Shown: positions 3,147 through 53,100, counted from the stretch's first letter. The stretch is 64,000 bases of DNA from Humibacillus sp. (GCA_030452985.1 JAKDLG010000001.1:40613-104612), one strand, 5' to 3'. The notes: a model not told the origin generated them from the sequence alone. Made by a program: numbers and translations.

Positions 3147-3324
3147 GTCGGGGCCACGGCCGGCTCAGGTCGCCGCTCGCGGCGTCGCACCGCACAGATC
3201 GGACCGTGGCGGGGGTGCGTGGGTCGGCAGCCGCGTGCCGGCTGCGGTCGTGTCGGGAGTGGTGCGAACGGAGGCACGTCCGACCGTGCCGAACGGCATC
3301 CGACCCGGCCGATAGGCTGACCGG

Positions 3325-6170: not shown

Positions 6171-7991
6171 ATGTGTGGGATCGCCGGCTTTCGCGGAGTC
6201 GAGGCCGACGAGGGGCTGGCGGAACGGCTCGGGCGTTGCCCGTTCCACCCGTCGGCAAAGGTGTTCCAAGGGGAGCGGTTCGGGCTGGCCGGCGCGATCG
6301 CCGGTCGGGTTGCGGGGCGGTTCGAGATCGCGCTCGACGGAGAGGTCTACAACCGGGTCGTGCTGCGCAGCCGGCTCACGCAGCTCGGGCACACGTTCAC
6401 GACCGCTGCCGACTGGGAGGTGGTGCTGGCCGCCTTCGTCGAATGGGGCGCAGCAGGGTTCGACCGTCTGAACGGCCCGTTCGCCGTCGCCGTGCGTGAC
6501 GGCGCGACCTCCTCGATCACGCTGGCCCGCGACCACTTCGGCATCCGCTCGCTCTACCTCACGCCGTCGGGAGAGGGCTGGCTCTTCGCCACGTCGATCG
6601 GGCCCATCATCGGTAGCGGCTACCACGACCGAAGACCCAACGAACGCACCATCTACCGCTACCTGCGCTTCGGGGTGCACGAAGACGGTCCCCAGACCTT
6701 CTTCGACGGTGTCGAACGCGTCGGGGCGGGTGAGGCGGTCACCATAACGGATGCCGGTGTCGAGCGACGACCGTTCACGGCGATCCGCGCCGAGCTGAGC
6801 GAGGCCGCGACGCAGCCACGAGCGTACGACGCCTCGGTGGTGCGCGAGTTTCGCTCGCGTCTCACCGAGGCGGTGCGACTACGCCTGCGCACGCCCGGAC
6901 CGGTGGCCACCGCCCTCTCGGGAGGGATTGACTCTGCAGCCCTCACCGCAGTGGTCGACACCCTGGCGGCAACCGACAACGTGGTGACCAAAGCCATTGG
7001 GGCACAGCTGAACACGGTTTCAGCCCTCTACCCTTCGTCGCCCCACGACGAACGGGTGCACGTCGACGCCGTCACGTCCTCACGCGACTTCCCCGTCTCT
7101 GCGCACTCGGTATGCCCAACCGCCAACGATTTCCAGAGCGACCTTGCCGACTTCGTGCGCACCCAGGAGGAGCCGCTCGTCTCGTCTGGGCCCTATACGC
7201 AGTACCGCGTGCTGCGTGAGGCGGCCGCCGTCGGGGTGCCTGCGGTGCTCGAGGGGCTGGGCGGAGACGAGACCCTGGCCGGGGCGGAGGCCCATCACCT
7301 CGTGCACGTGCGCCAGGTGCGCCAAACGAGCTCGCTCGGAGCCGTGACCGAGCTGGCCCGGTCGGTCGACGTCCTGGCCCGCCGAGGACGCCCCCGTCTT
7401 CGTGACCGCCTGCGCGGACACAAGGAAGGTCCGGTCACTCCGTTGCTGGGCGAGCGTTTTACCGCCCGCCATCATCACGAGACCTACTCCGCCACCCCAG
7501 ACGACCTGCGCGAGCGACTGCTCGATGACATCTTCATCGGTTCCCTGCCGGCCAGGCTGCGCTACGACGACCGCAACGCGCGTCGTTTCGGGGTCGCCAC
7601 ACGAATGCCGTTGCTCGACAAAGACCTCGTGCGCTTCGAGTTCGGGCTGAACAGCGAGGCGCTGATCAAGGACGGCACCAGCAAACGGGTGCTTCGCGAC
7701 GCGGTGAGCGACGTGTTGCCTGCCTCGGTCGTACGACGTCGCGACAAGGTCGGACTCACGACGCCGCAGGCCGAGTGGTTGCTGAGCCTGCAGAACGATA
7801 TCCGCGACGTGTTCGTCTCCGACACCTTCGCGAAGCGCCCGTACTTCAACCAGGGCGAGGTGCTGCGCACGTTCGAGGGGTGGGTCAAGGGCGGCGGCTC
7901 GGCAGACGCCCACACCATCTGGCGCCTGCTCAACCTCGAGCTGTGGCTACGCGAGTTCTTCGACCGTCACCCGAACCCCGCCCCGGTCTAG
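6171..7991 (+). CDS. Asparagine synthase (glutamine-hydrolysing) family amidotransferase.
   Basis: A 606-aa ORF starting MCGIAGF (Ntn Cys2 nucleophile). The synthetase domain has the PP-loop-like ALSGGIDSAA. Confidence 0.85.
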   Translation: MCGIAGFRGVEADEGLAERLGRCPFHPSAKVFQGERFGLAGAIAGRVAGRFEIALDGEVYNRVVLRSRLTQLGHTFTTAADWEVVLAAFVEWGAAGFDRLNGPFAVAVRDGATSSITLARDHFGIRSLYLTPSGEGWLFATSIGPIIGSGYHDRRPNERTIYRYLRFGVHEDGPQTFFDGVERVGAGEAVTITDAGVERRPFTAIRAELSEAATQPRAYDASVVREFRSRLTEAVRLRLRTPGPVATALSGGIDSAALTAVVDTLAATDNVVTKAIGAQLNTVSALYPSSPHDERVHVDAVTSSRDFPVSAHSVCPTANDFQSDLADFVRTQEEPLVSSGPYTQYRVLREAAAVGVPAVLEGLGGDETLAGAEAHHLVHVRQVRQTSSLGAVTELARSVDVLARRGRPRLRDRLRGHKEGPVTPLLGERFTARHHHETYSATPDDLRERLLDDIFIGSLPARLRYDDRNARRFGVATRMPLLDKDLVRFEFGLNSEALIKDGTSKRVLRDAVSDVLPASVVRRRDKVGLTTPQAEWLLSLQNDIRDVFVSDTFAKRPYFNQGEVLRTFEGWVKGGGSADAHTIWRLLNLELWLREFFDRHPNPAPV

Positions 7992-8070
7992 CGGCCACGT
8001 CCTGACGGTCGAGCGGCCACGCCCTGACGGTCGAGCGGCCACGCCTTGAAGGCTGATCGGCCACGGTCGA
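7991..8070. repeat. Tandem intergenic repeat, period about 22 bp, 3.5 units (GCGGCCACGYCCTGACGGTCGA).
   Basis: Read directly from the sequence. Units are at 7991-8012, 8013-8034 and 8035-8057, with a partial unit at 8058-8070. The array starts inside the TAG stop of the asnB-like gene. It shares the TCGAGYGGCCAC core with the repeats at 27.7, 46.2 and 48.1 kb. Confidence 0.85.
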
Positions 8071-18792: not shown

Positions 18793-18978
18793 CCGATCAT
18801 TGTCTTCGTGGCCATGCGCGCCGCGACACGCGCCCGGCCCGATGTGGCCCCACGGGGGTGAGGCGTCGGCCCGTCGGTCGTGAGGAAGTGGCCACTCGAC
18901 TGAGTTCTTGGCCCCGTGACCCCGGGTGTGCGTGGCTGGCCGGGCGGGTGGGTGGCGAGACGTAGGCTGGAGGCCATC

Positions 18979-27615: not shown

Positions 27616-27684
27616 CCGATCTGGCAGCACGGCCGGGGCTGGCGCTCGTCCGGGGCGCCGTGGCAGTGACGATGACCTTTTGCT

Positions 27685-27780
27685 GGTCGAGTGGCCAGTT
27701 CCGTGCGAGCAGGCGTGGACGAAAGTGGCCACTCGAACTGGGTTTGCGTGGACGAAAGTGGCCACTCGAACTGGGTGGGT
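27685..27780. repeat. Intergenic repeat array: two 33-bp tandem units (CGTGGACGAAAGTGGCCACTCGAACTGGGT..) plus one inverted partial copy.
   Basis: Units at 27714-27746 and 27747-27780 were read directly. The inverted core TCGAGTGGCCA at 27687-27697 is complementary to TGGCCACTCGA at 27726-27736. The array ends on the stop codon (27780-27782) of the minus-strand gene. Confidence 0.85.
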
Positions 27781-28178: not shown

Positions 28179-28288
28179 GCGACCCATCCTCACTCATCGT
28201 GCCCACCGTGGTGAATTCGCACCCCGCCGCCACAGCGTCACCGACGAGGTGCCATCCGCCCAAATAGTCAGCCGATACACTCCCGCTC

Positions 28289-28918: not shown

Positions 28919-29042
28919 TTGCTACTCTGGCTGCACACGACTGGCGCAGGTGGGCAACCACCGGGGAGTGACGTCGGGAGCATCGAACGCCTGGGTGCCC
29001 CCGGTCGCAGGCTCGTCCCCAGACCCCGTCACAGGAGTGAAC

Positions 29043-30698
29043 ATGGCTGCCCCCTTACGCACCTCGGCCGAACCGACCATGGCCGACCACGCCAGAGCGG
29101 ATGAGGGTCGCCGCCCCATCCGGCGAGCACTGGTCTCGGTCTACGACAAAACTGGTCTGGTCGAGCTCGCGGGTGTGCTCGGGGCCGCTGGCGTGACCAT
29201 CGTCTCGACCGGGTCGACGGCGAAGACCATTGCGGCGGCAGGGGTTGCGGTCACGCAGGTCGAAGAGCTCACGGGGTTTCCGGAGTGCCTCGACGGCCGC
29301 GTCAAGACGCTGCACCCGAAGGTGCACGCCGGCATCCTCGCCGACACCCGCAACGCAGACCACCTGCAGCAGCTCGACGACCTCGGGATCGAGCCGTTCG
29401 ACCTCGTCGTCGTCAACCTGTACCCGTTTGCCGAGACCGTGGCCTCGGGGGCCAGCCCTGACGAGTGTGTCGAGCAGATCGACATCGGCGGGCCGTCGAT
29501 GGTGCGGGCGGCCGCCAAGAACCACGCGAGCGTGGCCGTCGTCACCAGCCCAACGGCCTACGACCAGGTCGTCGAGGCCGTGGCGGCCGGTGGCTTCGCC
29601 CTCGAACAGCGCCGTCGTCTCGCGGCGGAGGCGTTCGTGCACACCGCGGGCTATGACGTAGCGGTGGCGAGCTGGATGGGTAACGTCGTGATTGACACGA
29701 GCGACGGCACCGGCTTCCCCAACTGGCTCGGGGCCACGTGGGAGCGCGCCGACGTGCTGCGCTACGGCGAGAACCCGCACCAACGCGCCGGCCTCTACCG
29801 GCACGCGCGGCCGGGAGTCGCCAGCGCAGAGCAGCTGCACGGCAAGGCGATGTCGTACAACAACTACGTCGACACGGATGCCGCTGTGCGCGCCGCTCAC
29901 GACCACGGTGACCAGCCGACGGTGGCCGTCGTCAAACACGCCAACCCCTGCGGCATCGCCATCGGCGACACGATCGAGGCCGCTTACGAGCGGGCCCACG
30001 CCACCGACCCGGTGAGCGCCTACGGCGGCATCATCGCGGCCAACCGCACCGTGACGGCCGCGATGGCCCGGGCCGCCAAGCCGGTGTTCACCGAGGTCAT
30101 CATTGCCCCCGACTTCGAGCCGGAGGCGCTCGAGATCCTCACGGCGAAGAAGAACCTGCGCGTGCTGCGACTCCCGGCCGGGATGGCGACGGCCGTCGAC
30201 GCGGTCGAGACCCGCGCCGTCAGCGGCGGGCTGCTCCTGCAGACCGTCGACCGGGTCGACGCGGTCGTGCGCGACGATGACGGCGCGATCACGGGGGGCG
30301 ATGACGCCGTGAACTGGCGTCTGGTGGCCGGCGAGGCCGCTGACGAGGCGACCGTGGCCGACCTCCAGTTCGCCTGGCGTGCCATTCGCGCGGTCAAGAG
30401 CAACGCGATCCTGCTCGCTCACGACGGCGCGGCGGTCGGCGTCGGGATGGGGCAGGTCAACCGGGTCGACGCGTGCTGGCTGGCGGTGCGCAGGGCGGGG
30501 GAGGAGCGGGCTCGGGGCTCGGTCGCGGCATCCGACGCCTTCTTCCCGTTCGCCGACGGTCTCCAGATTCTGCTGGATGCCGGTGTGCGCGCGGTCGTGG
30601 CCCCCGGCGGGTCGATCCGCGACGAGGAGGTCGTCGCCGCGGCCGAGGCGGCGGGCGTGACGATGTACTTCACCGGCACCCGCCACTTCGCCCACTGA
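29043..30698 (+). CDS. purH: Bifunctional AICAR transformylase / IMP cyclohydrolase.
   Basis: Motifs [48 protein letters not shown] and the C-terminal RHFAH are present. The start is at ATG 29043 or a later Met. The upstream part of the track ORF overlaps purN. Confidence 0.95.
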
Positions 30699-43520: not shown

Positions 43521-44473
43521 CGACGTCCACCCCCCAGCCCCTCGAACGCCGCGTTCGTTCTCGAACTCACCGTTGCAACAGCGCTTTCGTGCACGAACGC
43601 TGCGTTCGATCGGCTGATGGCGATTGGGAGAGCGCGGCGGGTGAGTTCGGCGACGAGCATCCGGCGGTAGTCGGCGCTCGCGTGGATGTCGGTCTCGGGG
43701 GCTACGTGTTCCCGCACGGCCTCGGCCGCCTGGTCGAGCGCGCTGCCGAACCCTGCGTCGGCCAGCTCTCGGCCGCCCAGTGCCGGCGTGAGGTCGAGCA
43801 CGCTGGGTACGTCGGTGACCGACACGAACGAGGCGGCGGCGGCCGAGACCACCCCGTCGCTCACCGTCACCCGCACGGCGACGCCGGCGAGCGCGTAGTC
43901 ACCGCTGCGCCGCGCCGACTCGGCGAACGCGGTGCCGGTGCCGGGGGGCATCCGGTTGAACCGGGTTGCGACTGCGAGCTCGTCGGGTGCGAGCACGGTC
44001 TCGAGGGCGCCGAGGAAGAAGTGCTGCCAACCGACCTCACGGATGCCGTGAGGCCCGACCACCTCGACGGTGCCGTCGCAGAGCGCCAGCACCGCCGGCA
44101 TCTCGCCCGCTGCGTCGGCATGCGCGATCGACCCCACGGTGGTGCCCCGGTTGCGGATGGCCGGGTGGGCGACGTTGACGACTGCCTGTCGCAGCAGGGG
44201 AAGCGCCGCATGCGTCGAGTCTGACCGCTCCAGACCCGAGTGGCGCACCAGGGCGCCGACGCGCACGGAGTCCGAAGTGATCTCGATGTCGTCGAGCCCT
44301 GTGACGTGGTTGATGTCGATGAGGTGGCCCGGTGACGCGAGGCGCATGTTGAGGATCGGGATGAGGCTTTGCCCGCCGGCCAGCACCTTGCCGTCGTGGC
44401 CGACCTCGGCGAGAACGGCGACGGCCTCCTCGACCGAGCGGGGCGCGTGGTACTCGAACGGAGCGGGCTTCAT
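43517..44473 (-). CDS. FAD-binding medium subunit (CoxM-like), with a C-terminal tail encoded by a palindromic repeat element.
   Basis: The ORF starts MKPAPFEYHAPRSVEEAVAVL...LAGGQSLIPILNMRL. The last ~35 aa (AISRSNAAFVHESAVATVSSRTNAAFEGLGGGRR) are translated from the palindrome-rich segment 43530-43620. Confidence 0.85.
43543..43609. repeat. Two copies of the 15-bp palindrome CGAACGCNGCGTTCG plus the 12-bp palindrome TTCGTGCACGAA (diverged family B element).
   Basis: Read directly: 43543-43557, 43595-43609 and 43587-43598. Confidence 0.8.
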
Positions 44474-44505
44474 CTGATGATCCTGCCTCCCGGGATGACC
44501 AGGAT

Positions 44506-45987
44506 CTAGGGGCGCCGTCGATCGGGTTCGTCGCGGTGGCCGGCCGCTCGGTCATGAGTGCCGGGGCTGTCGTCCTCGTGGTCGATGCCGGCCGGCCCGA
44601 CGATGATGAGGGCTCCGTCGGCGCGCGCCCGCAGGTCGGCGGGCGCGAGAGCACGCGCGAGGTGGTAGGCGCCGATGGCCACGATGGTGCCCAGGGCGAT
44701 ACCGCCGAGCTCGAAGTTCTTTGAGAACACCAGGCTCACGTTGCCGATGCCGATGACGATGCCGGCCGCGACGGGAACGAGGTTGATCGGGTTGGCGAAG
44801 TCGACGCCGTTCTCCTTCCAGATCTTGGCGCCGAGCAGGCCGATCATGCCGTAGAGCACGACGGTGATGCCGCCGAGAACGCCGCCCGGGGTGGCCGCGA
44901 CCAGGGCGCCGAACTTGGGCGAGAGCCCGAAGATGATCGCGACGACGGCGGCAACGTAGTAGGCCGCGGTGGAGTAGACGCGGGTGGCAGCCATGACGCC
45001 GATGTTCTCGGCGTAGGTCGTCGTCGGCGAGCCACCCACGGCGGAGGCGAGCATGGTGCCGACGCCGTCGGCTCCGATCGCCCGGCCCATGTAGGGGTCG
45101 AGGTCGGTCTTGGTCATCTCGGCGACCGCCTTGACGTGGCCGGTGTTCTCGGCGATCAGGGCGATGACGGCGGGCAGCACGAGCAGGATCGCCGCGACCG
45201 AGAAGCTCGGCAGGTGGGCGCCGACGATCTCCTTGCCGTCAGGGCCGATGCTGCTCACAGGCGGGAGACCGAACCAGGACGCCGAGTTGAACCCGTCGAG
45301 GTTGACCCTGAAGTGGTCGGTGATCTTGCCGGTTCCGTCGGAGGAGGTGATCATGCCGAAGACCTCGTCGAAGACCCACGAGAGCACGAACCCGAACACG
45401 AGAGCGAGGAAGATCGCGATGCGCCCGACGAACCCGCGGAAGGCGACGGCGAACACGATGGCGAACGTCATGACGCACAACGCGACCCACTGGTCCTGTG
45501 GCCAGTAGACGTTGGCCACCACCGGAGCGAGGTTGAACCCGATCAGCATCACGACGGCGCCGGTGACGACCGGCGGCAGCACCTGGTGCAGCAGTCTCGA
45601 GCCCAGGTAGTGGATCGCGACGCCGACGAGGGCGAGCACGAAGCCGGCGACCAGGATGGCGCCCGTCACGGTGGCCGACGTCGCACCTTCCTGACTGCGG
45701 ATGGCCGCGGCCGCTCCGACGAACGCCGCTGAGGTGCCAAGGTAGCTGGGCACCTTGCCGTTCACGATGAGCAGGAAGCAGATCGTGGCGATGCCGCTCA
45801 TCATGATTGCCAGCTGCGCGTTGAGGCCCATCAGGAGCGGGAACACGAACGTCGCGCCGAACATCGCGACGACGTGCTGCGCCCCCAGCCCGACGGTCCT
45901 GCCCCACGAGAGCCGCTCGTCGGGGGCCACGACCTCATCGGGCCCGAGTGTCTTGCCGTCGCCGTGCAGCTTCCAGCCCAGTGCCAT
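44506..45987 (-). CDS. NCS2-family nucleobase:cation symporter, RutG-like pyrimidine permease.
   Basis: Translation from Met 45987 gives MALGWKLHGDGKTLGPDEVVAPDERLSWGRTVGLGAQHVVAMFGATFVFPLLMG...VPSYLGTSAAFVG...PPVVTGAVVMLIGFNLAP. This closely follows the E. coli RutG pattern as I recall it. Confidence 0.85.
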   Translation of the reverse strand: MALGWKLHGDGKTLGPDEVVAPDERLSWGRTVGLGAQHVVAMFGATFVFPLLMGLNAQLAIMMSGIATICFLLIVNGKVPSYLGTSAAFVGAAAAIRSQEGATSATVTGAILVAGFVLALVGVAIHYLGSRLLHQVLPPVVTGAVVMLIGFNLAPVVANVYWPQDQWVALCVMTFAIVFAVAFRGFVGRIAIFLALVFGFVLSWVFDEVFGMITSSDGTGKITDHFRVNLDGFNSASWFGLPPVSSIGPDGKEIVGAHLPSFSVAAILLVLPAVIALIAENTGHVKAVAEMTKTDLDPYMGRAIGADGVGTMLASAVGGSPTTTYAENIGVMAATRVYSTAAYYVAAVVAIIFGLSPKFGALVAATPGGVLGGITVVLYGMIGLLGAKIWKENGVDFANPINLVPVAAGIVIGIGNVSLVFSKNFELGGIALGTIVAIGAYHLARALAPADLRARADGALIIVGPAGIDHEDDSPGTHDRAAGHRDEPDRRRP

Positions 45988-46175
45988 GTACGACTCCCAT
46001 CGGAAAGCGCCGGTTCGTCCCGCGCGGTCGGTGCCGGCACCCACGCTGCGGGCGCCTTGGGCCGAAAACTACTCCGAGACAGGGGGGTCGCGGTGGGCAA
46101 TTGCTGCTGACGCGCCGAAGTCGGTCTGGCAGGACCTGCCCTTCAGCCCCGCCCTCCCGGTCGAGAGCCCAAGAC

Positions 46176-46243
46176 CACCCAGTCGAGTGGCCACTTTCGA
46201 ACGCTCGGGGGGTCAACCCCACCCAGTCGAGTGGCCACTTTCG
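46176..46243. repeat. Two identical 24-bp cores (CACCCAGTCGAGTGGCCACTTTCG) spaced 44 bp apart (repeat family A).
   Basis: Copies at 46176-46199 and 46220-46243 were read directly. They are in inverse orientation relative to the 27.7 and 48.1 kb arrays. Confidence 0.85.
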
Positions 46244-46297
46244 TACGGTCGGGTGACCGTGCCCCCACCAGGGCGGCCGGGGTGAGCGGCATCCGGC

Positions 46298-46978
46298 TCA
46301 CGCCTGCAGGCCGCGACGGATGAGCGCGACCACCTCGGCGGCAGGTCGAACGTCGCCGTACGAGCGGTACACGACGTGCAGGGTCGCGTTGTGCTCTCGA
46401 TCGGTGTTGACGGCGCAACCGTCCGCCACGAGCACGACGCGGTAGTCGAGCGTACTGGCGTCGCGAACGCTGGCCTCGACGCAGACGTTGGTGACCGTGC
46501 CCGTCAAGATGACGGTGTCGATGCCCTGCTCGGCCAGTAGCTCGGGCAGGTCGCTACGGCCGGGGAAGAAGGCGCTGCTGGCCGTCTTCTCGGCCACGAG
46601 GTCGCCAGGCTCGACCTCCAGGCCGGCCCAGAGCCGTTCGACAGGCCGGCCGGAGCCGCCTGAACGCGCGTACCCCTGCGCAACCTCGTCGCCGTAGAAC
46701 TCCCGAGCTCTCGCCGAGGGCACGACGGGTCCGGGCACGACCCAGGCGACCGTTCCCCCGGCCCGGCGCAGCTCGTGGGCGAGCAGATTGACGGTCGGCA
46801 CGATGGCGCGGCAGCGAAGCGACTGCTCGACGAAGAACGGGACGAGGTCGACCACCACCAAGGCGGTACGGAGCGGGTCGATGCGTTCGAACGCGTGCCG
46901 GCGCCCGCGCCTCTCCTCGTGGCGGCGGTACTCCCGTTCGTCGATCGACCAGTGGAGCGCCGCCGAGTCATCGTTCAC
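46298..46978 (-). CDS. Isochorismatase-family cysteine hydrolase (the fold of RutB, BiuH and NicF).
   Basis: Motifs ALVVVDLVPFF and the catalytic Cys region LTGTVTNVCVEASVRDA are present. The GTG start makes a GTGA overlap with the monooxygenase stop. Confidence 0.8.
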   Translation of the reverse strand: MNDDSAALHWSIDEREYRRHEERRGRRHAFERIDPLRTALVVVDLVPFFVEQSLRCRAIVPTVNLLAHELRRAGGTVAWVVPGPVVPSARAREFYGDEVAQGYARSGGSGRPVERLWAGLEVEPGDLVAEKTASSAFFPGRSDLPELLAEQGIDTVILTGTVTNVCVEASVRDASTLDYRVVLVADGCAVNTDREHNATLHVVYRSYGDVRPAAEVVALIRRGLQA

Positions 46979-48069
46979 GGCGACGGCTCGAGGATGGTCG
47001 CGAACTGCCTCAGGAGTGCTCGAGCAGGCGTGGCTCTAGCCAGGGCATCGCGCAGGCTTGCCGTCAGCGGGTTGCCGGCCTGGGCCACCCGTCCGGCCAG
47101 CCGAGAGCGCGAGACCACGTACTCAGCGCGAGATCTGCGGTGGAGCTCATAGGCAGCCAACGCCTCGGGAACCGGGGCTGAGCCGAGCTCGTCGAGCAGT
47201 GCGGCGACGTCTTCGAGGGCTTGGGCGGCCCCTTGGCCCAGGTTCGGGGTCATCGCATGGGCGGCATCGCCGACCAGAGCCGTCGAGCGGCCGTCGTGCC
47301 AAGCGTTCAGGGCGGGGAGGTCCTGCAGCGCGAGCACGGGCGTGCTGCCCACCTGCCGCGCCTCGAGGGCATCGACGACCGGATGGTGCCAGCCGGCGAA
47401 GGTCTCGAGCGGATGCTCGGCGGCGGCCCGAGTTCGGGTGGCCGCGAACCAGTAGATCAGCTCGTCGCGCAACGGCACCAGCCCGAACCGCAACCCTCGA
47501 CCCCAATACTCGGTGGTCACCGCTGGCGTCATCGACCCGGTCCGGGCCACTCCGCGGGCGGCGAACTGACCCGTCTGCCGGGGGTGCACCACCCCTGTCA
47601 CCACCTCGCGTACCGACGAGTCGATTCCATCGGCCCCGACGATGAGCGTCCCGGAAACGGCTCGCCCGTCGACCAGGAGCTTCCCGGAGGCAACGGCCAT
47701 GGTCGAGCCGTAACGAATCGGTTCCGAGAGGTGCTCGCTGAGGGTGCGGGTCAGCTCGGCGCGGTGGACCGCGATCATGGGCCCGTAACGGGCCGTGAGC
47801 TCGGCGATCGGCAGCTGGGTGATCTCCCGGCCTCGAGCGCTGCGAATCGTCGCGCGGCTTGCCGGCATCCCGATGCTGCGGACCGCCGCGGCGGCACCGA
47901 TCGCGTCGAGGGCTCGCATCGCGTTAGGCCACAGCGTCAGGCCGGCGCCGTCCTCGCGCGGGGCGGATGCGCGTTCGAGCACGGTGACCTCCCAGCCGAG
48001 CCGCTCCAGCCCGATGGCGGTCGCAAGGCCGGCCACCCCGGCACCGACGACGGTGGCAGTCGGGCTCAT
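46975..48069 (-). CDS. FAD-dependent aromatic/heterocycle monooxygenase (UbiH/salicylate hydroxylase/HpxO-like).
   Basis: The N-terminus is TVVGAGVAGLATAIGLERLGWEVTVLER (GxGxxG). Later motifs are LVGDAAHAMTPNLGQGAAQALED. Confidence 0.85.
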   Translation of the reverse strand: MSPTATVVGAGVAGLATAIGLERLGWEVTVLERASAPREDGAGLTLWPNAMRALDAIGAAAAVRSIGMPASRATIRSARGREITQLPIAELTARYGPMIAVHRAELTRTLSEHLSEPIRYGSTMAVASGKLLVDGRAVSGTLIVGADGIDSSVREVVTGVVHPRQTGQFAARGVARTGSMTPAVTTEYWGRGLRFGLVPLRDELIYWFAATRTRAAAEHPLETFAGWHHPVVDALEARQVGSTPVLALQDLPALNAWHDGRSTALVGDAAHAMTPNLGQGAAQALEDVAALLDELGSAPVPEALAAYELHRRSRAEYVVSRSRLAGRVAQAGNPLTASLRDALARATPARALLRQFATILEPSP

Positions 48070-48132
48070 GGGGTCAACTCTCCCTCAGTTCGATCACAGC
48101 GGCGACGCTGTCGCCCGCCCAGCGGCATCCGC

Positions 48133-48208
48133 CGACTGTATGAAGGTGGCCATTCGACTGTACGGAAGTGGCCATTCGACTGTACGGAAGTGGCCACTCG
48201 ACTGGGGG
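48133..48208. repeat. 22-bp tandem repeat, 3.5 units (CGACTGTACGGAAGTGGCCAYT; repeat family A).
   Basis: Units at 48133-48154, 48155-48176 and 48177-48198, plus a partial unit at 48199-48208, were read directly. The array ends 4 nt from the PucR stop codon. Confidence 0.85.
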
Positions 48209-48212
48209 CGGG

Positions 48213-49925
48213 TCAGAGGCCGCGCATCCGGTGCACCTTGAGGGCGAGGGCCAGCGCGAGCCGCAGCTCGGGGTCTGTCGTGAACGGGCCGAGCATCCTC
48301 TCCAGCTTGCCGATGCGGTAGCGCAGCGTGTTGTAGTGGAAGAAGAGGCGCCGGGCCGTCTCGGCGACGTTGAGGTTCGTGTCGATGAGCAGGCCGAGCG
48401 TCTGGCGCAGGTCGGCGTACTCGGCCTGGTCGTCGGTGGCGAGCGGGCCCAGCGTGTCAGTCACGAAACGCCGCAGGTCGGCGCCGTCGGGCACGAGCGC
48501 GAGAAGCCGGTAGATGCCGAGACCGTCGACATGGGTCAGCGCGCCGTGGCCGTGCAGCTGACGGCCGACGGTGACCGCCGACTGCGCCTCGTCGTAGGCC
48601 TGGGGCAGGTCTGCGGGCGACGTGATCAGGCGAGACACCCCGGCCGAGAAGCTGCGGCGGCCACCGCCACCGTCTCCGCGCACCACGCGCACGAGATCGT
48701 GGACCGAGCGCAGGACGCGGTCGGTGTCGGCCTCGGCCGGCACGCCCACCAGAGCGACGACCTCGCGGCTGAAACCCATGACCGGAGAGCGGCTCTCCCG
48801 GACTGCCATCGCGTGGGTCCACGCCCGGGTGAACCGCTCCTGAAGGAAACGCACCTCCTCCGCGCCGCGGCTCGACCGCTCGTCGTCCTCGTCGGTCTCG
48901 GCCACGACGACCACCATCGGGCGGTCGATGTCCCACCCGAGCGACTGCGCGTGCGCAACGGCGTCAGCCACCGACCCGGCCCGGCCGGCGAGGGCGTCGC
49001 GCAGAAACTCGGCCCGGTACTTGCTCTCCACCGCCGCCACGGCCTGGTCCTTGGTGATGGCCAGGGCCGCTACCGTGGCCGCGCGCTCGAGCAGGTGCAC
49101 GTCATCGACCGTGAGGGGGCGCCGGCTGCAGAAGGCGACGAGCAGGCCGTGGTCGAAGTGACCGGCGGCGATGCGGACCGCGGCGCGGCCGGCGGTGGGG
49201 CCGTCGGGGCGGGCGCCGATCGGCTCCGACTCCGTCAGCAGCCGCCCCGACCGGTCGAAACAGGGCAGGGATGCCGCGTGCTCGCGTTCGGGTACCGAGC
49301 CCGCCGCGGCGATGACCCGCCCGTCGGTGGTGGTCACCATCGCCGCCCCGCCGATGAAGCCGACCACCCGTTCGCACAGGTCATCGAGCGAACCACCGGC
49401 CAGGACGATCCGCACGAGAGCGCGATCGGCATCGTCGAGCCGGCGCAGCAGCGACGTCTGGTGCTCGAGGATGGCCTCGAGCACCTCGGTGGTGAACCGA
49501 GGCAGGCGCTCGTCGGGGAGCTCGATGAGCGGCAGGGTGCTGGCGTGCTCTGCGGGCCTCATGAAGGGTTCGGCCCGGTCGGCCGAGGCGGTGCCCACCA
49601 CGAGACCGGCCGCGCCGGCCCGGGCCAACCGGCCCATCAGACACTCTCGACCTGAGGCGGTGGGCCCGGCTGCGCTCAGCAGCGTCGTTTCGTCGGTGAT
49701 GACGAGCCGGTGGAGCAGGTCGATCTGCTCGCTGTGGACGGGGAGCACCGTGCTGACGCGGTCGACCGCGACATCGAGGTCGCCGACGCAGACGTGCATG
49801 ACGCCACCTCGACTCGCCGCCAGACCTGCGATGCGACGCAAGGGGATGCCGGACACGTCGGAATCGGTGACGGAAGCTGGCAAAAATGCAGCACGGGGAG
49901 GGGCATCGTTGGCAACATTGGCCAT
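48213..49925 (-). CDS. PucR-family transcriptional regulator (purine catabolism regulator-like).
   Basis: The C-terminal PucR HTH reads NVAETARRLFFHYNTLRYRIGKLERMLG. The large N-terminal sensor region is typical of the family. Confidence 0.85.
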   Translation of the reverse strand: MANVANDAPPRAAFLPASVTDSDVSGIPLRRIAGLAASRGGVMHVCVGDLDVAVDRVSTVLPVHSEQIDLLHRLVITDETTLLSAAGPTASGRECLMGRLARAGAAGLVVGTASADRAEPFMRPAEHASTLPLIELPDERLPRFTTEVLEAILEHQTSLLRRLDDADRALVRIVLAGGSLDDLCERVVGFIGGAAMVTTTDGRVIAAAGSVPEREHAASLPCFDRSGRLLTESEPIGARPDGPTAGRAAVRIAAGHFDHGLLVAFCSRRPLTVDDVHLLERAATVAALAITKDQAVAAVESKYRAEFLRDALAGRAGSVADAVAHAQSLGWDIDRPMVVVVAETDEDDERSSRGAEEVRFLQERFTRAWTHAMAVRESRSPVMGFSREVVALVGVPAEADTDRVLRSVHDLVRVVRGDGGGGRRSFSAGVSRLITSPADLPQAYDEAQSAVTVGRQLHGHGALTHVDGLGIYRLLALVPDGADLRRFVTDTLGPLATDDQAEYADLRQTLGLLIDTNLNVAETARRLFFHYNTLRYRIGKLERMLGPFTTDPELRLALALALKVHRMRGL

Positions 49926-50137
49926 GCGCGGACTGTACCCGGCCTCGGTAGCGTCGGCTCACGATGCGGGTCAGGTCGGCCCCGATCAGACGGGAGCGCC
50001 GCGTGAGCACACGGGTCGAGACACCGACCGTCGTGTCGTGGCCGGCCGCTGTCTCGCCGCTCGTCGCACCGACGCCGGTGACCTCATGACCTTTGGCGCC
50101 GGCGGGGTGCGGCTGCCCGGACACGCGGAGGCCATCG

Positions 50138-53100
50138 ATGGTTGACCATGTCGAGCTCAGACCGGGCGGCTACCACGACTCCGTGAGCCTGATGCAGGTC
50201 TCTCGGGCGGTAGCGACGGCGCCCGGGGTGGAGGCGGCGCAGGTCGCGATGGCGACCGACCTCAACCTCGAGGTGATCGCCTCCATGGGCTTCACGGTGC
50301 CCCCGGGCGCGGGGCTCAATGACCTCGTCGTCGTGCTGCGTGGTGACGCCGCCGCCGTTGACGCCGGCCTGGAGGCGCTGGAGTCTGCCTTCGCCGCGCT
50401 CCACTCCGCGGCGGCACGGTCGACCGGATTCGGCGAGCCACCGCAGCCCCGCACCCTCGGCGGCGCGGTCGCCCTGTCGCAGGCCAACCTCGCCCTCGTG
50501 TCGGTTCCCGGCCCCCACGCCGCAGTCGAGGCGCTCGACGCGATCCGGGCCGGCGTCAGCGTCATGGTGTTCTCCGACAACGTGCCCGTCGAGCAGGAGG
50601 TGCAGCTCAAGGCCACCGCCGCTGAGCGGGGCGTGCTCGTCATGGGCCCCGACTGCGGCACCGCGGTGGTCGGCGGGGTGGCTCTCGGGTTCGCCAATGT
50701 CGTGCGGGAGGGGTCGGTGGGCATCGTGGCGGCCTCCGGCACCGGGGCCCAGCAGGTCATGTGCCTGCTCGATGCGGCCGGCGTCGGTATCAGCCACTGC
50801 CTCGGCGTCGGTGGACGCGACCTGACCGGAGAGGTGGGTGGTCGTTCGACCCGGCAGGCGCTGGCGGTTCTCGCCACGGACCCGCTCACCACCTCGATCA
50901 TCGTGGTCTCCAAGCCACCGGCCCCACGGGTCCTCGCCGCGATCGAGGCGGATGCCGTCGGGCTGGGCAAGCCGGTCAGCTGGGCGATCCTGGGGCCGGG
51001 GCGGCCCGACCTGACCAGCGTGGTCGAGTCGGTGCTTGCCGATACGGGGACCGGGCCAACCGGCTGGCCGAACCGCAAGGTCGAGTGGCCCACCGGGCAG
51101 GGGGAGTGGCCAGCGGCCCTGCCCGGCTCGCTGCGGGGACTGTTCTGCGGGGGCACGCTGGCCGACGAGGCGATGCTGATCGCCACCGAGTACGTGGGCG
51201 GCATCCGGTCGAACATCGCGCTGTCGCCCGACCTGGCCCTCGGGCCCGACCTGCGCCACGAGGGCCATCTCGTCATCGACTTCGGCGACGACGCGCTGAC
51301 GCGGGGGAGGGCGCACCCCATGATCGACCCCTCTCTCCGGCTGGCACGCATCGCCACCGAGGCAGCCGACCCCACCTGCGGAGTGTTGCTGCTCGACCTG
51401 GTGCTGGGTCACGGCGCCCACCCCGACCCGGCACCTGACCTGGCCGCAGCCATCGCGTCGGCCCGCCGGGTGGCGGCCGACGGCGGGCGCGAGCTGCCCG
51501 TGGTCGTCTCGCTCATCGGCACCGGCGCCGACCCCCAGGGCTGGGCGCGCTCGGCCGACCTGCTCGCTGCCGCCGGGGCCGCTGTGCTGCTCTCCAACGC
51601 CGAAGCCACCCGGTACGCCCTGAACCTGCTGGGCCACCGAACGCGGCCGCATCAGGTGCCCCCGTCGCAGCCTGAGGCCGGTCAGCGCCCTGTCGCCGCT
51701 GTGGAGACTGTCTTCCCGGGCACGACAGGCGTGCAGATGCCGCTCGAAGGCGAGGTCACGGTGGCCACGGCAGGCGCGGCTGCCCTGACGGATGCCCTTC
51801 GTGAACAAGGGATCTCTGTCACGCAGGCGAGCTGGCAGCCGCCGGTTACTGGCGCCGAGAGCGACCTCTGGGCAGTGTCGACCGACATCCGGCGCGACAC
51901 CGCCAACGCCCAGGCGCTGGCCCGCATGACGGCAGCCGGCGCCGAACTCGTCGACGTGCGGCCCGCGAGTGAAGCCCTCGGTCTCGGGCGCGGCACCTTT
52001 CTGCACGCCGGTCCGCCCATCACCTTCGCGCGGGCATCGGGGCCGTTGCGGGGGGCGCTCATCGGGGCCATGCTGCTCGAGGGGCTGGCTGACACCGCGG
52101 AGGAGGCCGAGACCGCCTTGACCCGCGGCGAGGGCATCGTGCTCGAACCGTGCCACCACCGCGGCGCGGTGGGCCCGATGGCCGGGGTCATCTCACCGTC
52201 GATGTGGGTCTACGAGCTGCGCGACGAGGTGCACGGCAACACCTCCTGGTGCTCGCTCAACGAGGGCCTCGGCAAGGTGCTGCGCTACGGAGCCTACGGC
52301 CCGGAGGTCATCGACCGGCTGCGCTGGATGGGCGCGGTGCTCGGGCCGATCCTGCAGCAGGCGGTGCGGGCGCGGCTGCACCAACAGGGACCGATCGACG
52401 TCAAGGCGATCATCGCTGCGATGCTGCAGATGGGCGACGAGGGGCACAACCGCAACCGGGCCGGGTCGTTGTTGCTGCTGCGCGAGCTGCTGCCCACGAT
52501 GATCACCGCCGACGCGCCCAGCAGCGACATCGCCGAGGCGGTCCGCTTCTCGGGGGCCAACGAGCACTTCTTCCTCAACCTCGGGATGCCGGCCTGCAAG
52601 CTGGCGACCGTGGCGGCCCACGGCATCCCGGGCTGCACGGTCGTCACGACGATGGCCCGCAACGGCACCGACTTCGGCATCCGGGTCTCCGGCACGGGCG
52701 ATGCCTGGTTCACTGCTCCCGCGGGCACCCCCGAGGGGCTCTTCCTGGGTGACTACGGCCCGGCTGACGCCAACCCCGACATCGGCGACTCGGCGATCAC
52801 CGAGACCGCCGGAATCGGTGGGTTCGCCATGGCAGCGGCGCCCGCCATCGTGCGCTTCGTCGGGGGCGACGTGGCGTTCGCCCTGCGCACCACTGCGACG
52901 ATGTACGAGATCACGGTGGGTGAGCACCCGGCCTACCAGGTACCGATTCTCGAGTTCCGGGGCACCCCGACCGGCATCGACGTCGTCGCGGTGGCCCGCA
53001 CCGGCATCCTGCCGCAGATCAACACGGGGATGGCAGGGCGAGTCGCCGGTACCGGTCAGGTCGGAGCGGGTCTGGTGACACCGCCCGCCGCCTGCTTCAC

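What the first reader, a model, noticed from the sequence alone, without database searches (positions are those of the whole stretch)
46176..48208. Family A repeats (core AGTGGCCACT) bracket the isochorismatase-monooxygenase gene pair inside the catabolic island
There are two identical 24-bp cores at 46176-46199 and 46220-46243, and a 3.5-unit 22-bp array at 48133-48208. Together they flank exactly the two-gene unit 46298-48069, and the two sides are in opposite orientation to each other.

The same core (TCGAGTGGCCACTTYCG) recurs at 27.7 kb, and in diverged form at 8.0 kb.

The tandem periods I measured are 22, 33, 44 and 22 bp. All are multiples of 11 bp, about one helical turn. That would place the 10-bp palindrome AGTGGCCACT on one face of the DNA, as expected for cooperative binding of a dimeric protein.

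Possible roles:
- MIRU/REP-like elements
- insulators or terminators between transcription units
- operator arrays
- scars of module insertion
Basis: seen in the sequence. Interest (0 to 1): 0.6.

Follow-up and report, generated by a model that had tools for sequence, protein, structure and literature searches.

The report
REP-like intergenic repeats hugging gene ends
The repeats on both sides of the two-gene unit are copies of a short palindrome-containing DNA element, scattered about 180 times between genes in this actinobacterium and its closest relatives, and they look like gene-end hairpin elements rather than marks of a mobile gene cassette.

Summary
AGTGGCCACT occurs 6 times in the window (0.06 expected) and 130 times in the genome.

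It lies inside a near-invariant, asymmetric 21-nt unit, GTCGAGTGGCCACTT(T/C)CGTAC, with a C-rich 5' extension. There are 184 units in 89 clusters.

- **Location:** 171/184 units lie outside called genes. They sit a median of 22 nt from stop codons, in either orientation. They are enriched between convergent genes and depleted between divergent ones.
- **Folding:** Single units do not fold, but two or more units pair through the palindromic core, whether direct or inverted (47/52 multi-unit clusters have z < -2).
- **Distribution:** The family was found only in two genera of one family among the roughly 390 genomes sampled.
- **Conservation:** Units occupy orthologous sites with variable copy number, and are better conserved than their flanks (93.8% vs 73-87%).
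- **Transposase:** No RAYT transposase was found in six genomes.
- **The gene pair:** One relative has lost the gene pair, leaving a 92-bp relic, yet keeps units on both sides. The bracket is therefore not an insertion scar.
- **Spacing:** The 11-bp rule fails genome-wide.

One unexpected link emerged. Every assembled copy of a multi-copy DUF222-HNH (REP13E12-type) gene carries these units at its 5' boundary.

Verdict: a new RAYT-less REP-like family. Its function is inferred, not shown.

The parts
46176..46199 (+). Left repeat unit 1 (CACCCAGTCGAGTGGCCACTTTCG, then AAC instead of TAC). It lies between the isochorismatase stop (46298) and the permease start (46044).
   Evidence: weight-matrix hit 46179-46203, 41.1 bits. 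The CGAAC variant is shared with the orthologous unit in G019 and G088.
46220..46243 (+). Left repeat unit 2, identical 24-nt core, 44 bp after unit 1.
   Evidence: 46223-46247, 45.3 bits. Together with unit 1 it folds at -35 to -40 kcal/mol, z -2.9 and -3.7.
48137..48205 (-). Right array of three units head to tail, period 22. Weight-matrix windows are 48137-48161, 48159-48183 and 48181-48205. The array starts 7 nt after the stop of the PucR-type regulator gene and lies 68 nt upstream of the monooxygenase start.
   Evidence: 48133-48204, period 22, 3.3 copies; 27.7, 35.7 and 43.2 bits.
46298..46978 (-). Isochorismatase-family gene (226 aa), first of the bracketed pair.
   Evidence: Pfam PF00857, E 6.6e-30. 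A 92-bp relic of it remains in G088.
46975..48069 (-). FAD-dependent monooxygenase gene (364 aa), second of the pair.
   Evidence: Pfam PF01494, E 6e-21.
48213..49925 (-). PucR-type regulator gene whose stop codon abuts the right array.
   Evidence: Pfam HTH_30 and GGDEF_2.
44506..46044 (-). Xanthine/uracil permease gene downstream of the left repeat pair.
   Evidence: Pfam PF00860, E 4.9e-74.
27683..27773 (.). Cluster of three units ('+ - -', period 33 for the direct pair) between convergent genes (26386-27615 on +, 27780-28193 on -).
   Evidence: Fold -50.9 kcal/mol, z -2.96.
18879..18903 (-). Single unit, partly decayed (GTGAGG instead of GTACGA), upstream of the UvrD/PcrA-type helicase gene.
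   Evidence: It is present but decayed differently in G088 and G139. About 105 nt including it are absent in G019.
7984..8065 (+). Degenerate 22-bp array (3.7 copies, core GAGCGGCCAC) starting at the stop of the asparagine-synthase-like gene.
   Evidence: Relatives have one decayed unit here plus about 730 bp more coding sequence.

Best explanation
The repeats are members of a lineage-restricted family of REP-like (repetitive extragenic palindrome-like) elements.

The unit is a near-invariant, asymmetric 21-mer, GTCGAGTGGCCACTT(T/C)CGTAC, usually preceded by a C-rich stretch, giving about 30-32 nt in all. It contains the perfect 10-bp palindrome AGTGGCCACT.

Units sit in intergenic DNA a few to a few tens of bases from stop codons, in either orientation. 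They occur singly, as head-to-tail arrays, or as inverted doublets. Because the core is its own reverse complement, any two neighbouring units can pair, whether direct or inverted, and form a long G+C-rich hairpin in single-stranded DNA or RNA.

I infer that these hairpins act at the ends of transcription units, as U-tract-less terminators or insulators, or as 3'-end hairpins that protect mRNA. At the locus in question they would separate three co-directional units of a purine-catabolism cluster: the PucR-type regulator, the monooxygenase-isochorismatase pair, and the permease.

Arrays grow and shrink by slippage or unequal recombination between units. That process produces the variable periods and the copy-number differences between species.

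Shown here: the family, its anatomy, its placement, its pairing potential, its restricted distribution, its orthologous persistence and its high conservation. Inferred: the terminator/insulator or stabiliser role, and how units spread.

The bracketing of the gene pair follows from units occupying two neighbouring intergenic spaces. It is not a sign that the pair is a cassette.
For: **Family and consensus**
- AGTGGCCACT occurs 130 times in the 5.55-Mb genome.
- 120 of the 124 sites with full context share the oriented unit.
- The weight-matrix scan gives 184 units above 10 bits, against 12 for the reversed matrix. Above 18 bits it is 178 against 0.

**Placement**
- 171/184 units are outside called genes, although 87% of the genome is called coding.
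- Of 49 clusters with both neighbours called, 19 are convergent, 25 co-directional and 5 divergent. Expected counts are 8.5-9.7, 25-28 and 11-15.5 (p = 0.002 by number of intergenic regions, 4e-5 by length).
- 44/49 have at least one adjacent 3' end.
- Median distance to adjacent stop codons is 22 nt (46/83 within 30 nt). For start codons it is 122 nt (4/55 within 30 nt).
- Orientation at stops is 29 forward to 29 reverse.

**Structure**
- One-unit clusters: median z -0.15, with 4/37 below -2.
- Two-unit clusters: median z -4.62, with 26/29 below -2.
- Clusters of three or more units: median z -4.48, with 21/23 below -2.
- The two loci of the finding were folded.

**Evolution**
- Of 30 unit loci from other genomes that map uniquely to G000, 28 have units in G000 and 14 have the same number.
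- Over 13 orthologous sites, unit positions are 93.8% identical (591/630). Spacers are 72.9%, near flanks 79.1% and far, mostly coding, flanks 86.6%.
- At one convergent site where a genome of the second genus has two units, G000 has an ordinary hairpin instead.

**Distribution**
- 8/151 genomes of the family have the unit: all 4 of the own genus and both of one other genus carry 39-169 copies, and two further genomes have a single hit each.
- 0/236 genomes of 23 other families of the order have it.

**REP-like side traits**
- In-frame intragenic arrays with periods of 27, 39 and 42 bp were found, one of them in a DNA polymerase III alpha-type gene.
- The abstract of PMC3733652 reports intragenic REPs, many of them in replication and repair genes (listing, passages).
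Against: - No transcript data exist. No RNA run was listed, so termination or stabilisation is untested.
- The consensus scan finds no hairpin-plus-U-tract terminator at the repeats. At most UUU follows the core, and only in one orientation.
- 37 of 89 clusters are single units that do not fold better than shuffles. Many of these lie at contig ends and may be truncated arrays; 38/89 clusters are within 300 nt of a contig end.
- The minus-strand RNA of the right array, which is the sense strand there, folds no better than shuffles (z -0.39).
- Conservation higher than in coding flanks could equally reflect a sequence-specific protein partner or gene conversion.
- The conservation measurement is biased. 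The loci were picked because the other genome holds an exact 21-mer.
- No mobilising enzyme was identified. PF01797 was not found in six genomes, and no clean filled-versus-empty site was found.
Confidence: 0.6

Rival explanations
1. The units are the terminal or recognition sequence of a mobile DUF222-HNH (REP13E12-type) nuclease element. The element carries units at its 5' end, its HNH nuclease recognises the palindrome or the cruciform it forms, and the roughly 80 solo clusters are non-autonomous derivatives or footprints. This would be an HNH-based analogue of the REP-RAYT relationship.
For: **G000**
- A multi-copy gene has about 8-9 copies. The full copy is 625 aa at C56:18466-16589. A 600-aa stretch of it was scanned against Pfam: DUF222 E 5.6e-30, HNH 21.0 bits against a 21.4 cut-off.
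- All 8 assembled 5' ends are preceded by units in the same orientation. The order is: host stop codon, C-rich stretch, 1-2 canonical units, an optional 111-nt module, a G-variant unit, a promoter, then ATG.

**G088, a well-assembled same-genus genome**
- 11 of the 12 copies with a recovered leader have canonical units at the boundary. The twelfth has a decayed one.

**Other genomes**
- The same arrangement is seen in 11 of the 80 loci fetched, all 11 from three records other than the Intrasporangium-labelled MAGs.
- In the second unit-bearing genus, one DUF222 gene has three G-variant units just upstream of its promoter.

**Sites without the element**
- At 3 of 3 sites where G088 has the element and G000 does not, G000 has no units either.

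**Earlier notes**
- Earlier scan notes report DUF222-HNH genes among REP-like hairpin repeats in two other lineages (unchecked leads).
Against: - About 79 of 89 clusters in G000 have no HNH gene. They also lack the 111-nt module and the leader.
- No unit lies at the 3' end of the element in any of the 9 copies examined.
- The same HNH subfamily occurs without units in a genus that lacks the family (G108).
- DUF222 is present in 55 of 61 genomes of the family, while units occur in two genera only.
- In a comparator with 7 paralogous copies (G008), the 5' boundary motif occurs only at those copies and is not dispersed.
- 7 of the 8 DUF222 upstream regions examined in G066 have no units.
- The three HNH-less sites differ from G088 by more than the element itself, so they are not clean empty sites.
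- The earlier notes concluded that the gene landed among the repeats rather than carrying them.
Confidence: 0.2
2. The units are binding sites of a sequence-specific dimeric DNA-binding protein, either a regulator or a nucleoid-associated protein. Tandem sites would be placed on one face of the helix for cooperative binding.
For: - The core is a perfect 10-bp palindrome.
- All 21 positions are near-invariant.
- Units are more conserved than coding flanks.
- Direct-repeat spacings cluster at 22, 31-33 and 42-46 bp rather than being uniform.
- REP/BIME elements of enterobacteria are described as binding sites for several proteins (abstract of PMC2817692, seen in the listing).
Against: - 19 of 49 assignable clusters lie between convergent genes, and only 5 lie in divergent promoter regions.
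- Units lie a median of 22 nt from stops but 122 nt from starts.
- The conserved unit is asymmetric, with a TT insertion on one side and a GTAC tail. This fits copies of one ancestor better than selection by a symmetric dimer.
- Periods of 23, 24, 27, 35-39, 50 and 60 bp occur. Apart from 22, only 4/20 (G000) and 5/45 (others) are multiples of 11.
- The preferred inverted pairs have core-to-core distances of about 34 and 29 bp (spacings of 33 and 30, plus my offset arithmetic).
- In-frame copies are tolerated inside genes.
- No candidate protein was identified.
Confidence: 0.12
3. The two repeat blocks are the ends or scars of a mobile two-gene module: a cassette bounded by inverted repeats that was inserted here.
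For: - The blocks flank exactly the two genes and are mutually inverted.
- Five of ten close cluster pairs in the genome show the same '+ ... -' arrangement around one or two minus-strand genes.
- The gene pair is absent from G088 and replaced by another gene in G066.
Against: - G088 retains a 92-bp internal fragment of the isochorismatase gene. It therefore lost the pair by deletion, and the deletion ends lie outside the units.
- Units remain on both sides in G088 and in G019, with different copy numbers.
- G066 has no units at this site.
- By my reckoning, 5 of 10 '+ ... -' pairs against 2.5 expected by chance is not significant.
- The pair was not found elsewhere with these ends. The joints are other repeat loci, plus a G088-like form in run X4.
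Confidence: 0.03

Closest known systems
REP / BIME / REPIN elements of Proteobacteria (repetitive extragenic palindromes; RAYT-associated)
   Same: - Short unit of 20-40 bp.
- More than 100 copies per genome.
- Extragenic, concentrated at gene 3' ends.
- Occur singly, in arrays and as inverted doublets with a preferred spacer.
- Hairpin-forming.
- Lineage-restricted and vertically persistent.
- Occasional in-frame copies inside genes.
- A conserved tetranucleotide at one end (here GTAC).
   Different: - No RAYT/Y1 transposase (PF01797) was found in any of six unit-bearing genomes.
- The tag is GTAC at one end and GTCG at the other, not GTAG or CGTC.
- The core is a perfect palindrome with no loop, so a single unit does not fold. 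Pairing occurs between units, including direct repeats.
- Head-to-tail arrays are the commonest arrangement: 56 direct against 39 inverted adjacent pairs.
- The host is an actinobacterium. PMC3733652 does not contain the word Actinobacteria.
CGTC-tagged REPs (Di Nocera et al. 2013, PMC3733652; abstract and passages read)
   Same: A REP-type family with no dedicated transposase gene flanked by the repeats.
   Different: The terminal tetranucleotide and the sequence differ, and the phylum differs. Here a multi-copy HNH gene, not a Y1 transposase, is the only gene consistently flanked by units, and on one side only.
REP13E12 / 13E12-repeat (DUF222-HNH) elements of Mycobacterium
   Same: - The multi-copy gene that carries the units at its 5' boundary has DUF222 plus an HNH motif.
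- It has a promoter fitting the RecA-NDp pattern, TGTC[AG]GTG-N8-TAnnnT, with ATG 6-7 nt after it.
- Passages of PMC3381160 state that the 13E12 family is DNA-damage induced, carries RecA_NDp and is largely LexA-bound.
- The motif letters themselves are recalled, not taken from a paper I read.
   Different: - REP13E12 is a repeat of about 1.4 kb that contains a gene. The finding is a 21-32-nt unit, mostly found without that gene.
- No short dispersed unit is described for REP13E12 in the passages I read.
- One comparator genus here (G008) has none.
MIRU / VNTR loci of mycobacteria
   Same: Tandem intergenic arrays whose copy number differs between related genomes. For example, one locus has 13 units in another genome and 2 in G000.
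   Different: As I recall, MIRU units are 40-100 bp and lie within operons. The units here are 22-44 bp, also occur singly and inverted, and share a palindromic core.
U-tract-less ('I-shaped') hairpin terminators proposed for Actinobacteria (recalled; no paper read here)
   Same: G+C-rich hairpins right after stop codons, enriched between convergent genes, with no U tract.
   Different: Ordinary terminators are locus-specific sequences. Here one sequence is reused at 89 loci, and the hairpin needs two units.

Membership tests
REP / REPIN-RAYT systems | Short (20-40 bp) repeated unit present in about 100 or more copies per genome | tested here: met
   The conserved unit is 21 nt, or about 30-32 nt with its C-rich extension. 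G000 has 184 units. Five other genomes have 39-169 matches to the 21-mer with up to one mismatch.
REP / REPIN-RAYT systems | Extragenic location, typically at 3' ends of genes | tested here: met
   171/184 units lie outside called genes. Convergent regions are enriched and divergent ones depleted. Median distance to stop codons is 22 nt.
REP / REPIN-RAYT systems | Each unit is an imperfect palindrome able to form its own stem-loop | tested here: inconclusive
   The unit holds a perfect 10-bp palindrome flanked by CGA...(TT)TCG. Single-unit clusters nevertheless fold no better than shuffles (median z -0.15, 4/37 below -2). Only clusters with two or more units fold well (47/52 below -2).
REP / REPIN-RAYT systems | Inverted doublets or alternating arrays (REPIN, BIME) | tested here: met
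   39 of 95 adjacent pairs are inverted. Preferred start-to-start spacings are 33 for '+-' and 30 for '-+', in G000 and in the other genomes. Direct arrays are more common, however.
REP / REPIN-RAYT systems | Conserved GTAG (or CGTC) tetranucleotide at one end | tested here: not met
   The ends are GTAC and GTCG/CGAC. The criterion is taken from the abstract and passages of PMC3733652.
REP / REPIN-RAYT systems | A cognate RAYT (Y1/HUH transposase, PF01797) in the genome, flanked by the repeats | tested here: not met
   PF01797 gave 0 matches in G000 (94% complete). It also gave 0 of 5 in G088, G019, G066, G139 and G120 (completeness 58-100%). The control search rang in 6 of 14 known genomes.
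CRISPR arrays | Repeats of 24-48 bp separated by unique spacers of similar length | tested here: not met
   The commonest period equals the unit length, so there is no spacer. Longer periods repeat the same spacer sequence. Clusters hold 1-8 units at 89 loci. Cas genes were not searched for.
MIRU-type VNTR | Tandem units of about 40-100 bp in intergenic regions of operons (recalled definition) | tested here: not met
   Units are 22-44 bp and also occur singly and inverted. 19/49 clusters lie between convergent genes.
Intrinsic (Rho-independent) terminators | G+C-rich hairpin followed by a U tract | tested here: not met
   Hairpins are present where there are two or more units. The consensus scan finds no hairpin-plus-T-run site at either repeat block.
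REP13E12 / DUF222-HNH elements (applies to the multi-copy gene linked to the units, not to the units themselves) | DUF222 domain with a C-terminal HNH motif, several copies per genome | tested here: met
   PF02720 E 5.6e-30. PF01844 scores 21.0 bits against a 21.4 cut-off, so just under. G000 has about 8-9 copies, and G088 has at least 12 with leaders.

The most novel reading that the evidence does not exclude
The 21-nt units are the DNA signal of the DUF222-HNH (REP13E12-type) elements. The damage-inducible HNH nuclease would recognise the palindrome or the cruciform formed by paired units, the element would carry units at its 5' end, and solo units and arrays would be its non-autonomous offspring. 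That would be a second, RAYT-independent way of making REP-like families. It would also be the first handle on how the long-unexplained 13E12-type repeats of Actinobacteria move.
Probability: 0.2. Interest if true: 0.7.

Novelty: new variant of a known kind. Interest (0 to 1): 0.42.

Why it matters
REP-type elements have been studied almost entirely in Proteobacteria, where a dedicated RAYT transposase explains how they persist. This is a comparable family in Actinobacteria, with about 180 copies, held at orthologous sites across species and conserved better than neighbouring coding DNA. It has no RAYT, and its architecture is unusual: a loop-less palindromic core that makes direct repeats pair with each other.

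If these units terminate or insulate transcription, they offer a compact, portable and orientation-independent part for high-G+C hosts. They would also explain how tightly packed co-directional operons, such as this purine-catabolism cluster, are kept apart.

The strict association with the 5' boundary of a damage-inducible DUF222-HNH gene makes a long-standing question directly testable: how REP13E12-type repeats spread.

On the practical side, the family fragments short-read assemblies. 38 of 89 clusters lie within 300 nt of a contig end. It also gives VNTR-like markers for the genus.

Tried and rejected
- **Rfam:** A gathering-threshold scan of the window and an E-value scan of four HNH-leader loci found nothing on the units or on the 111-nt module. 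They found only a ZMP/ZTP riboswitch and a fluoride riboswitch elsewhere.
- **Expression:** No RNA holder was listed for window 44400-50200, so nothing can be said about transcripts.
- **Laying DNA contigs of four runs:** Contigs break at both repeat blocks. The many 'joints' between the blocks are other repeat loci. One run (X4) holds both a form with the gene pair and a G088-like form without it. No copy-number variant of the arrays could be read from the contigs.
- **Literature:**
  - A search for AGTGGCCACT found 31 papers. The 20 listed are unrelated by their titles.
  - Searches on REP, RAYT and Actinobacteria, on extragenic palindromes, intergenic repeats and stem-loops in actinomycetes, and on Intrasporangiaceae genera with repeat terms found no description of this family.
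  - The search on DUF222, REP13E12 and 13E12 found no paper whose title or abstract start, as listed, links them to short dispersed repeats. Passages were read in only two of those papers.
  - These searches cover only the held library.
- **Clean filled-versus-empty sites:**
  - The apparent empty site at C65 is a collapsed hybrid palindrome.
  - C246 carries an unrelated hairpin.
  - The G019 gap at the 18.9-kb unit is a 105-nt indel, not a unit-sized one.
- **Co-variation test for the HNH link:** In G008 the 5' boundary motif of seven paralogous DUF222-HNH copies occurs only at those copies (8 hits). No analogous dispersed family exists there.
- **G066 copies closest to the G000 subfamily:** These end at contig ends, so their 5' sides could not be read.
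- **Orientation rule relative to the adjacent gene:** Rejected, at 29 to 29.
- **8.0-kb variant core GAGCGGCCAC:** It does not form a separate genome-wide subfamily (3 hits).
- **Earlier findings of this scan:** Nothing for this genome or this sequence.
Full report
**1. The observation**

Reading window 46000-48400 confirms the description.
- Positions 46176-46199 and 46220-46243 are the same 24-mer, CACCCAGTCGAGTGGCCACTTTCG, 44 bp apart.
- Tandem Repeats Finder reports 48133-48204 as 3.3 copies of a 22-bp unit with 92% matches.
- The two minus-strand ORFs 46298-46978 and 46975-48069 fill the space between the blocks. Pfam calls them isochorismatase and a FAD_binding_3 monooxygenase.
- The neighbours are a xanthine/uracil permease (44506-46044), a PucR-type regulator (48213-49925), a xanthine-dehydrogenase-type FAD subunit and an AllG/CoA-ligase fusion. 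This is a purine-catabolism neighbourhood.
- The core AGTGGCCACT occurs 6 times in the window, against 0.06 expected.

**2. A genome-wide family**

The window is part of a 5.55-Mb, 358-contig, 69.2% G+C draft genome. The core occurs 130 times.

Of the 124 sites with full context, 120 share one oriented, asymmetric unit: a C-rich stretch followed by (C)CAGTCGAGTGGCCACTT(T/C)CGTAC(A/G). Twenty-one positions are almost invariant.

A weight matrix built from these sites finds 184 non-overlapping units above 10 bits. The reversed matrix finds 12. Above 18 bits the counts are 178 and 0.

The units form 89 clusters: 37 with one unit, 29 with two, 14 with three, and 9 with four to eight units. 38 clusters lie within 300 nt of a contig end, so arrays break the assembly and the counts are lower bounds.

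**3. Where the units sit**

I called genes with a codon-usage model trained on the genome itself. It gave 4934 genes and 87% coding. Stop codons from this caller are exact; start codons are approximate.
- 171 of 184 units do not overlap a called gene by more than 12 nt.
- For the 49 clusters with a called gene on both sides, the flanks are convergent in 19, co-directional in 25 and divergent in 5.
- Expected counts from intergenic regions of 20 nt or more are 9.7, 28.2 and 11.1 by number (p = 0.002). By length they are 8.5, 25.0 and 15.5 (p = 4e-5).
- 44 of the 49 have at least one adjacent 3' end.
- The median distance to an adjacent stop codon is 22 nt (46 of 83 within 30 nt). For an adjacent start codon it is 122 nt (4 of 55 within 30 nt).
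- At stops within 60 nt, the nearest unit points either way equally often, 29 to 29.

The elements therefore belong to gene ends, not to promoters, and they are orientation-independent.

Some of the 13 'genic' units are artefacts of my caller at contig ends. Three arrays, however, are real in-frame insertions, with periods of 27, 39 and 42 bp. They lie in a DNA polymerase III alpha-type gene, a Methyltransf_28 gene and the tail of a CobB-like gene.

**4. Structure**

A single unit cannot form a good hairpin, because its palindrome has no loop. One-unit clusters fold no better than dinucleotide shuffles (median z -0.15; 4 of 37 below -2).

Because the core is self-complementary, two units pair with each other whether they are direct or inverted. 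Two-unit clusters have a median z of -4.62 (26 of 29 below -2). Clusters of three or more have a median z of -4.48 (21 of 23 below -2).

At the finding itself:
- The left pair folds at -35.3 kcal/mol on the plus strand (z -2.9) and -39.5 on the minus strand (z -3.7).
- The right array folds at -40.7 on the plus strand (z -3.1).
- As minus-strand RNA, which is the sense strand of the surrounding genes, the right array reaches only -25.3 (z -0.4).

No hairpin-plus-T-run terminator is detected at either block.

**5. Spacing**

Periods of direct repeats were counted once per array.
- In G000 (33 array-periods): 22 (13), 23 (2), 24, 27 (2), 30, 31, 32 (2), 33, 39, 42 (2), 44 (3), 50, 52 (2) and 60.
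- In the 80 loci from other genomes (58 array-periods): 22 (13), 31 (5), 32 (9), 33 (3) and a spread from 21 to 62.
- Leaving out 22, which is simply units abutting, 4 of 20 and 5 of 45 periods are multiples of 11.
- The second mode, 31-33, is the unit plus its C-rich extension, as in the 32-bp array of contig C358.
- Inverted pairs strongly prefer start-to-start spacings of 33 ('+-') and 30 ('-+') in both data sets. By my offset arithmetic these correspond to core-to-core distances of about 34 and 29 bp, which are not one helical phase.

The spacings are therefore not random, but they are explained by unit anatomy and doublet geometry rather than by an 11-bp rule. Note that loci in related genomes are not independent.

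**6. Distribution and age**

The exact 21-mer is found in public records labelled Humibacillus, Intrasporangium, Terracoccus, Terrabacter and 'Actinomycetales bacterium'.

In a sample of 151 genomes from 73 genera of the family:
- All four genomes of the own genus carry 67-142 matches.
- Both genomes of one other genus carry 39 and 169 matches.
- Two further genomes have one match each.
- The reversed-pattern control gave 0 in all 151 genomes.

None of 236 genomes from 23 other families of the order has a match.

Of the 80 foreign loci:
- 30 map with both flanks uniquely to one G000 contig. Of these, 28 have units at the same place in G000 and 14 have the same number.
- 13 more map to the ends of two different G000 contigs.
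- Copy number varies widely, for example 13 against 2, or 2 against 7.

Over 13 orthologous sites, unit positions are 93.8% identical (591/630). Spacers are 72.9% (221/303), the nearest 40 nt of flank 79.1% and farther, mostly coding, flank 86.6%. There is a caveat: the foreign loci were chosen because they hold a perfect 21-mer, and only alignments spanning the whole cluster were kept.

The units are maintained either by selection or by conversion among copies. Some solo units do decay. The 18.9-kb unit carries different lesions in G000/G139 and in G088.

**7. The bracketed gene pair**

I compared window 44400-50200 with relatives.
- G019 (same genus, 84% identity) has the pair with units on both sides: two on the left, 23 bp apart, and one decayed unit on the right.
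- G088 (same genus) lacks the pair. It keeps one left unit, a 92-bp fragment matching window 46372-46463 (inside the isochorismatase gene), and two right units. The pair was therefore deleted there, and the deletion ends are not in the repeats.
- G066 (the other unit-bearing genus) has a different 312-aa ORF and no units at this site.
- A wastewater run (X4) holds contigs of both forms.

The units belong to the two intergenic spaces. The right array starts 7 nt after the regulator's stop. The left pair lies 50 nt after the isochorismatase stop. The inverted arrangement is one of the chance outcomes of orientation-free placement: 5 of 10 close cluster pairs look like this.

**8. No RAYT, but an HNH gene**

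The Y1 transposase family PF01797 was not found in G000, nor in five other unit-bearing genomes of 58-100% completeness.

While mapping foreign loci I saw that many share several hundred bases next to the units. This is the 5' end of a multi-copy gene.
- G000 has eight 5' ends and nine 3' ends, most of them at contig ends.
- The full copy is 625 aa, at C56:18466-16589 on the minus strand.
- A 600-aa stretch of it scores DUF222 at E 5.6e-30 and HNH at 21.0 bits, just under the 21.4 cut-off.

All eight 5' ends have the same layout: a host stop codon (or, in G088, once a tRNA gene), a C-rich stretch, one or two canonical units, an optional 111-nt module, a G-variant unit (AGTGGCCAGT), about 60 nt, then ATG.

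The leader contains TGTC[AG]GTG-N8-TAGNGT with the ATG 7 nt behind it. This fits the RecA-NDp promoter pattern as I recall it. The letters come from memory. Passages of PMC6789036 and PMC3381160 confirm only that PafBC acts through RecA-NDp, and that the mycobacterial 13E12 family is damage-induced and carries it.

Further observations on this gene:
- In G088, 12 copies with leaders were recovered. Eleven have canonical units at the boundary and one has a decayed unit.
- There is no unit at the 3' end of any of the 9 copies in G000.
- The 111-nt module occurs only with this gene.
- The three other DUF222 genes of G000 sit on contigs with no unit cluster.

**9. Does the gene carry the units, or land on them?**

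For carrying:
- The orientation is fixed.
- At three sites where G088 has the element and G000 does not (C60, C249, C11), G000 has no units either. These sites differ by more than the element, so they are not clean.

Against a general dependence:
- About 79 of 89 clusters have no such gene.
- DUF222 is in 55 of 61 genomes of the family, whereas units are in two genera.
- The same HNH subfamily sits directly behind a host stop codon, without units, in G108.
- In G066, only 1 of 8 DUF222 upstream regions has units: three G-variant units with a 35-bp period.
- In G008, seven paralogous copies share a boundary motif that is found nowhere else in that genome.

Earlier notes of this scan describe DUF222-HNH genes among REP-like hairpin repeats in two other lineages, and concluded that the gene had landed among them. 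These are unchecked leads. I leave this question open and give the functional link a probability of 0.2.

**10. Comparison with known systems**

The family has the size, copy number, extragenic placement, doublets, lineage restriction and intragenic exceptions of REP elements. It fails two defining tests of the classical REP-RAYT system: the terminal tag (GTAC/GTCG rather than GTAG or CGTC) and the RAYT gene.

REP families without a dedicated transposase are on record: the CGTC REPs of PMC3733652 (abstract and passages read). That paper's text does not mention Actinobacteria.

My literature searches found no description of this family, nor of a link between DUF222-HNH genes and short dispersed repeats. 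They cover only the held library.

**11. Verdict**

Phased operator arrays and insertion scars do not.

What is new is an actinobacterial, RAYT-less REP-like family with inter-unit pairing, and its strict association with the 5' boundary of a damage-type HNH gene.

The functional role is inferred from placement and folding only. No transcript data were available.

Noticed in passing
G000:C56:16589-18570 (full copy); further copies on C10, C39, C120, C133, C166, C219, C227, C249, C288, C308, C326 and others: A multi-copy (about 8-9) DUF222-HNH (REP13E12-type) gene with a RecA-NDp-like promoter and an ATG 6-7 nt after the -10 element. Every assembled 5' end is preceded by the repeat units, and the copies sit directly behind host stop codons. 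The copy on C133 appears interrupted by about 1.5 kb.
   Followed up: yes
G000:C168:27392-31489 (-), C248:10206-11324 (+), C223:37-1512 (-): In-frame arrays of the unit inside genes. Two units with a 27-bp period lie in the stretched PHP domain of a DNA polymerase III alpha-type gene. Three units with a 39-bp period lie in a Methyltransf_28 gene. Three units with a 42-bp period lie in the C-terminal tail of a CobB-like gene.
   Followed up: partly
window 28927-29003 (+): ZMP/ZTP riboswitch aptamer (Rfam RF01750, 43.3 bits against a gathering score of 39), just upstream of the ORF 28950-30698.
   Followed up: no
L089 5583-5657 (+), about G000:C56:20082-20156: Fluoride riboswitch aptamer (RF01734, 38.6 bits, E 5.4e-8).
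   Followed up: no
window 6171-8065: The asparagine-synthase-like gene ends at 7991 in G000. In G088, G019 and G139 the homologous interval is about 730 bp longer, and in G088 (seen also in G019's sequence) the ORF runs on for roughly 290 more residues. The G000 deletion abuts the degenerate 22-bp array.
   Followed up: partly
G000:C65, around 2400-2450: A collapsed hybrid unit, GTACGAAACTGGCCACTTTCGTAC, sits where a related genome has an inverted doublet. It looks like a deletion between the two palindromic cores.
   Followed up: partly
G000:C288:346-456 and 5 further places (C39, C138, C166, C227, C234): A 111-nt module with two internal inverted repeats (ttggcacct...aggtgcc), found only between units upstream of the DUF222-HNH gene. 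It has no Rfam match.
   Followed up: partly
L083 (G066:C99) 3303-4241 (-): In the other unit-bearing genus, the place of the isochorismatase-monooxygenase pair is taken by an unrelated 312-aa ORF. The space between permease and regulator is therefore a variable spot.
   Followed up: no
L137-L143 (G008): Seven paralogous DUF222-HNH copies in a 2.6-Mb genome of another genus share a leader of about 190 nt that starts with GGGTGGGTTGTCCACAGG. Its boundary motif is confined to these copies.
   Followed up: partly
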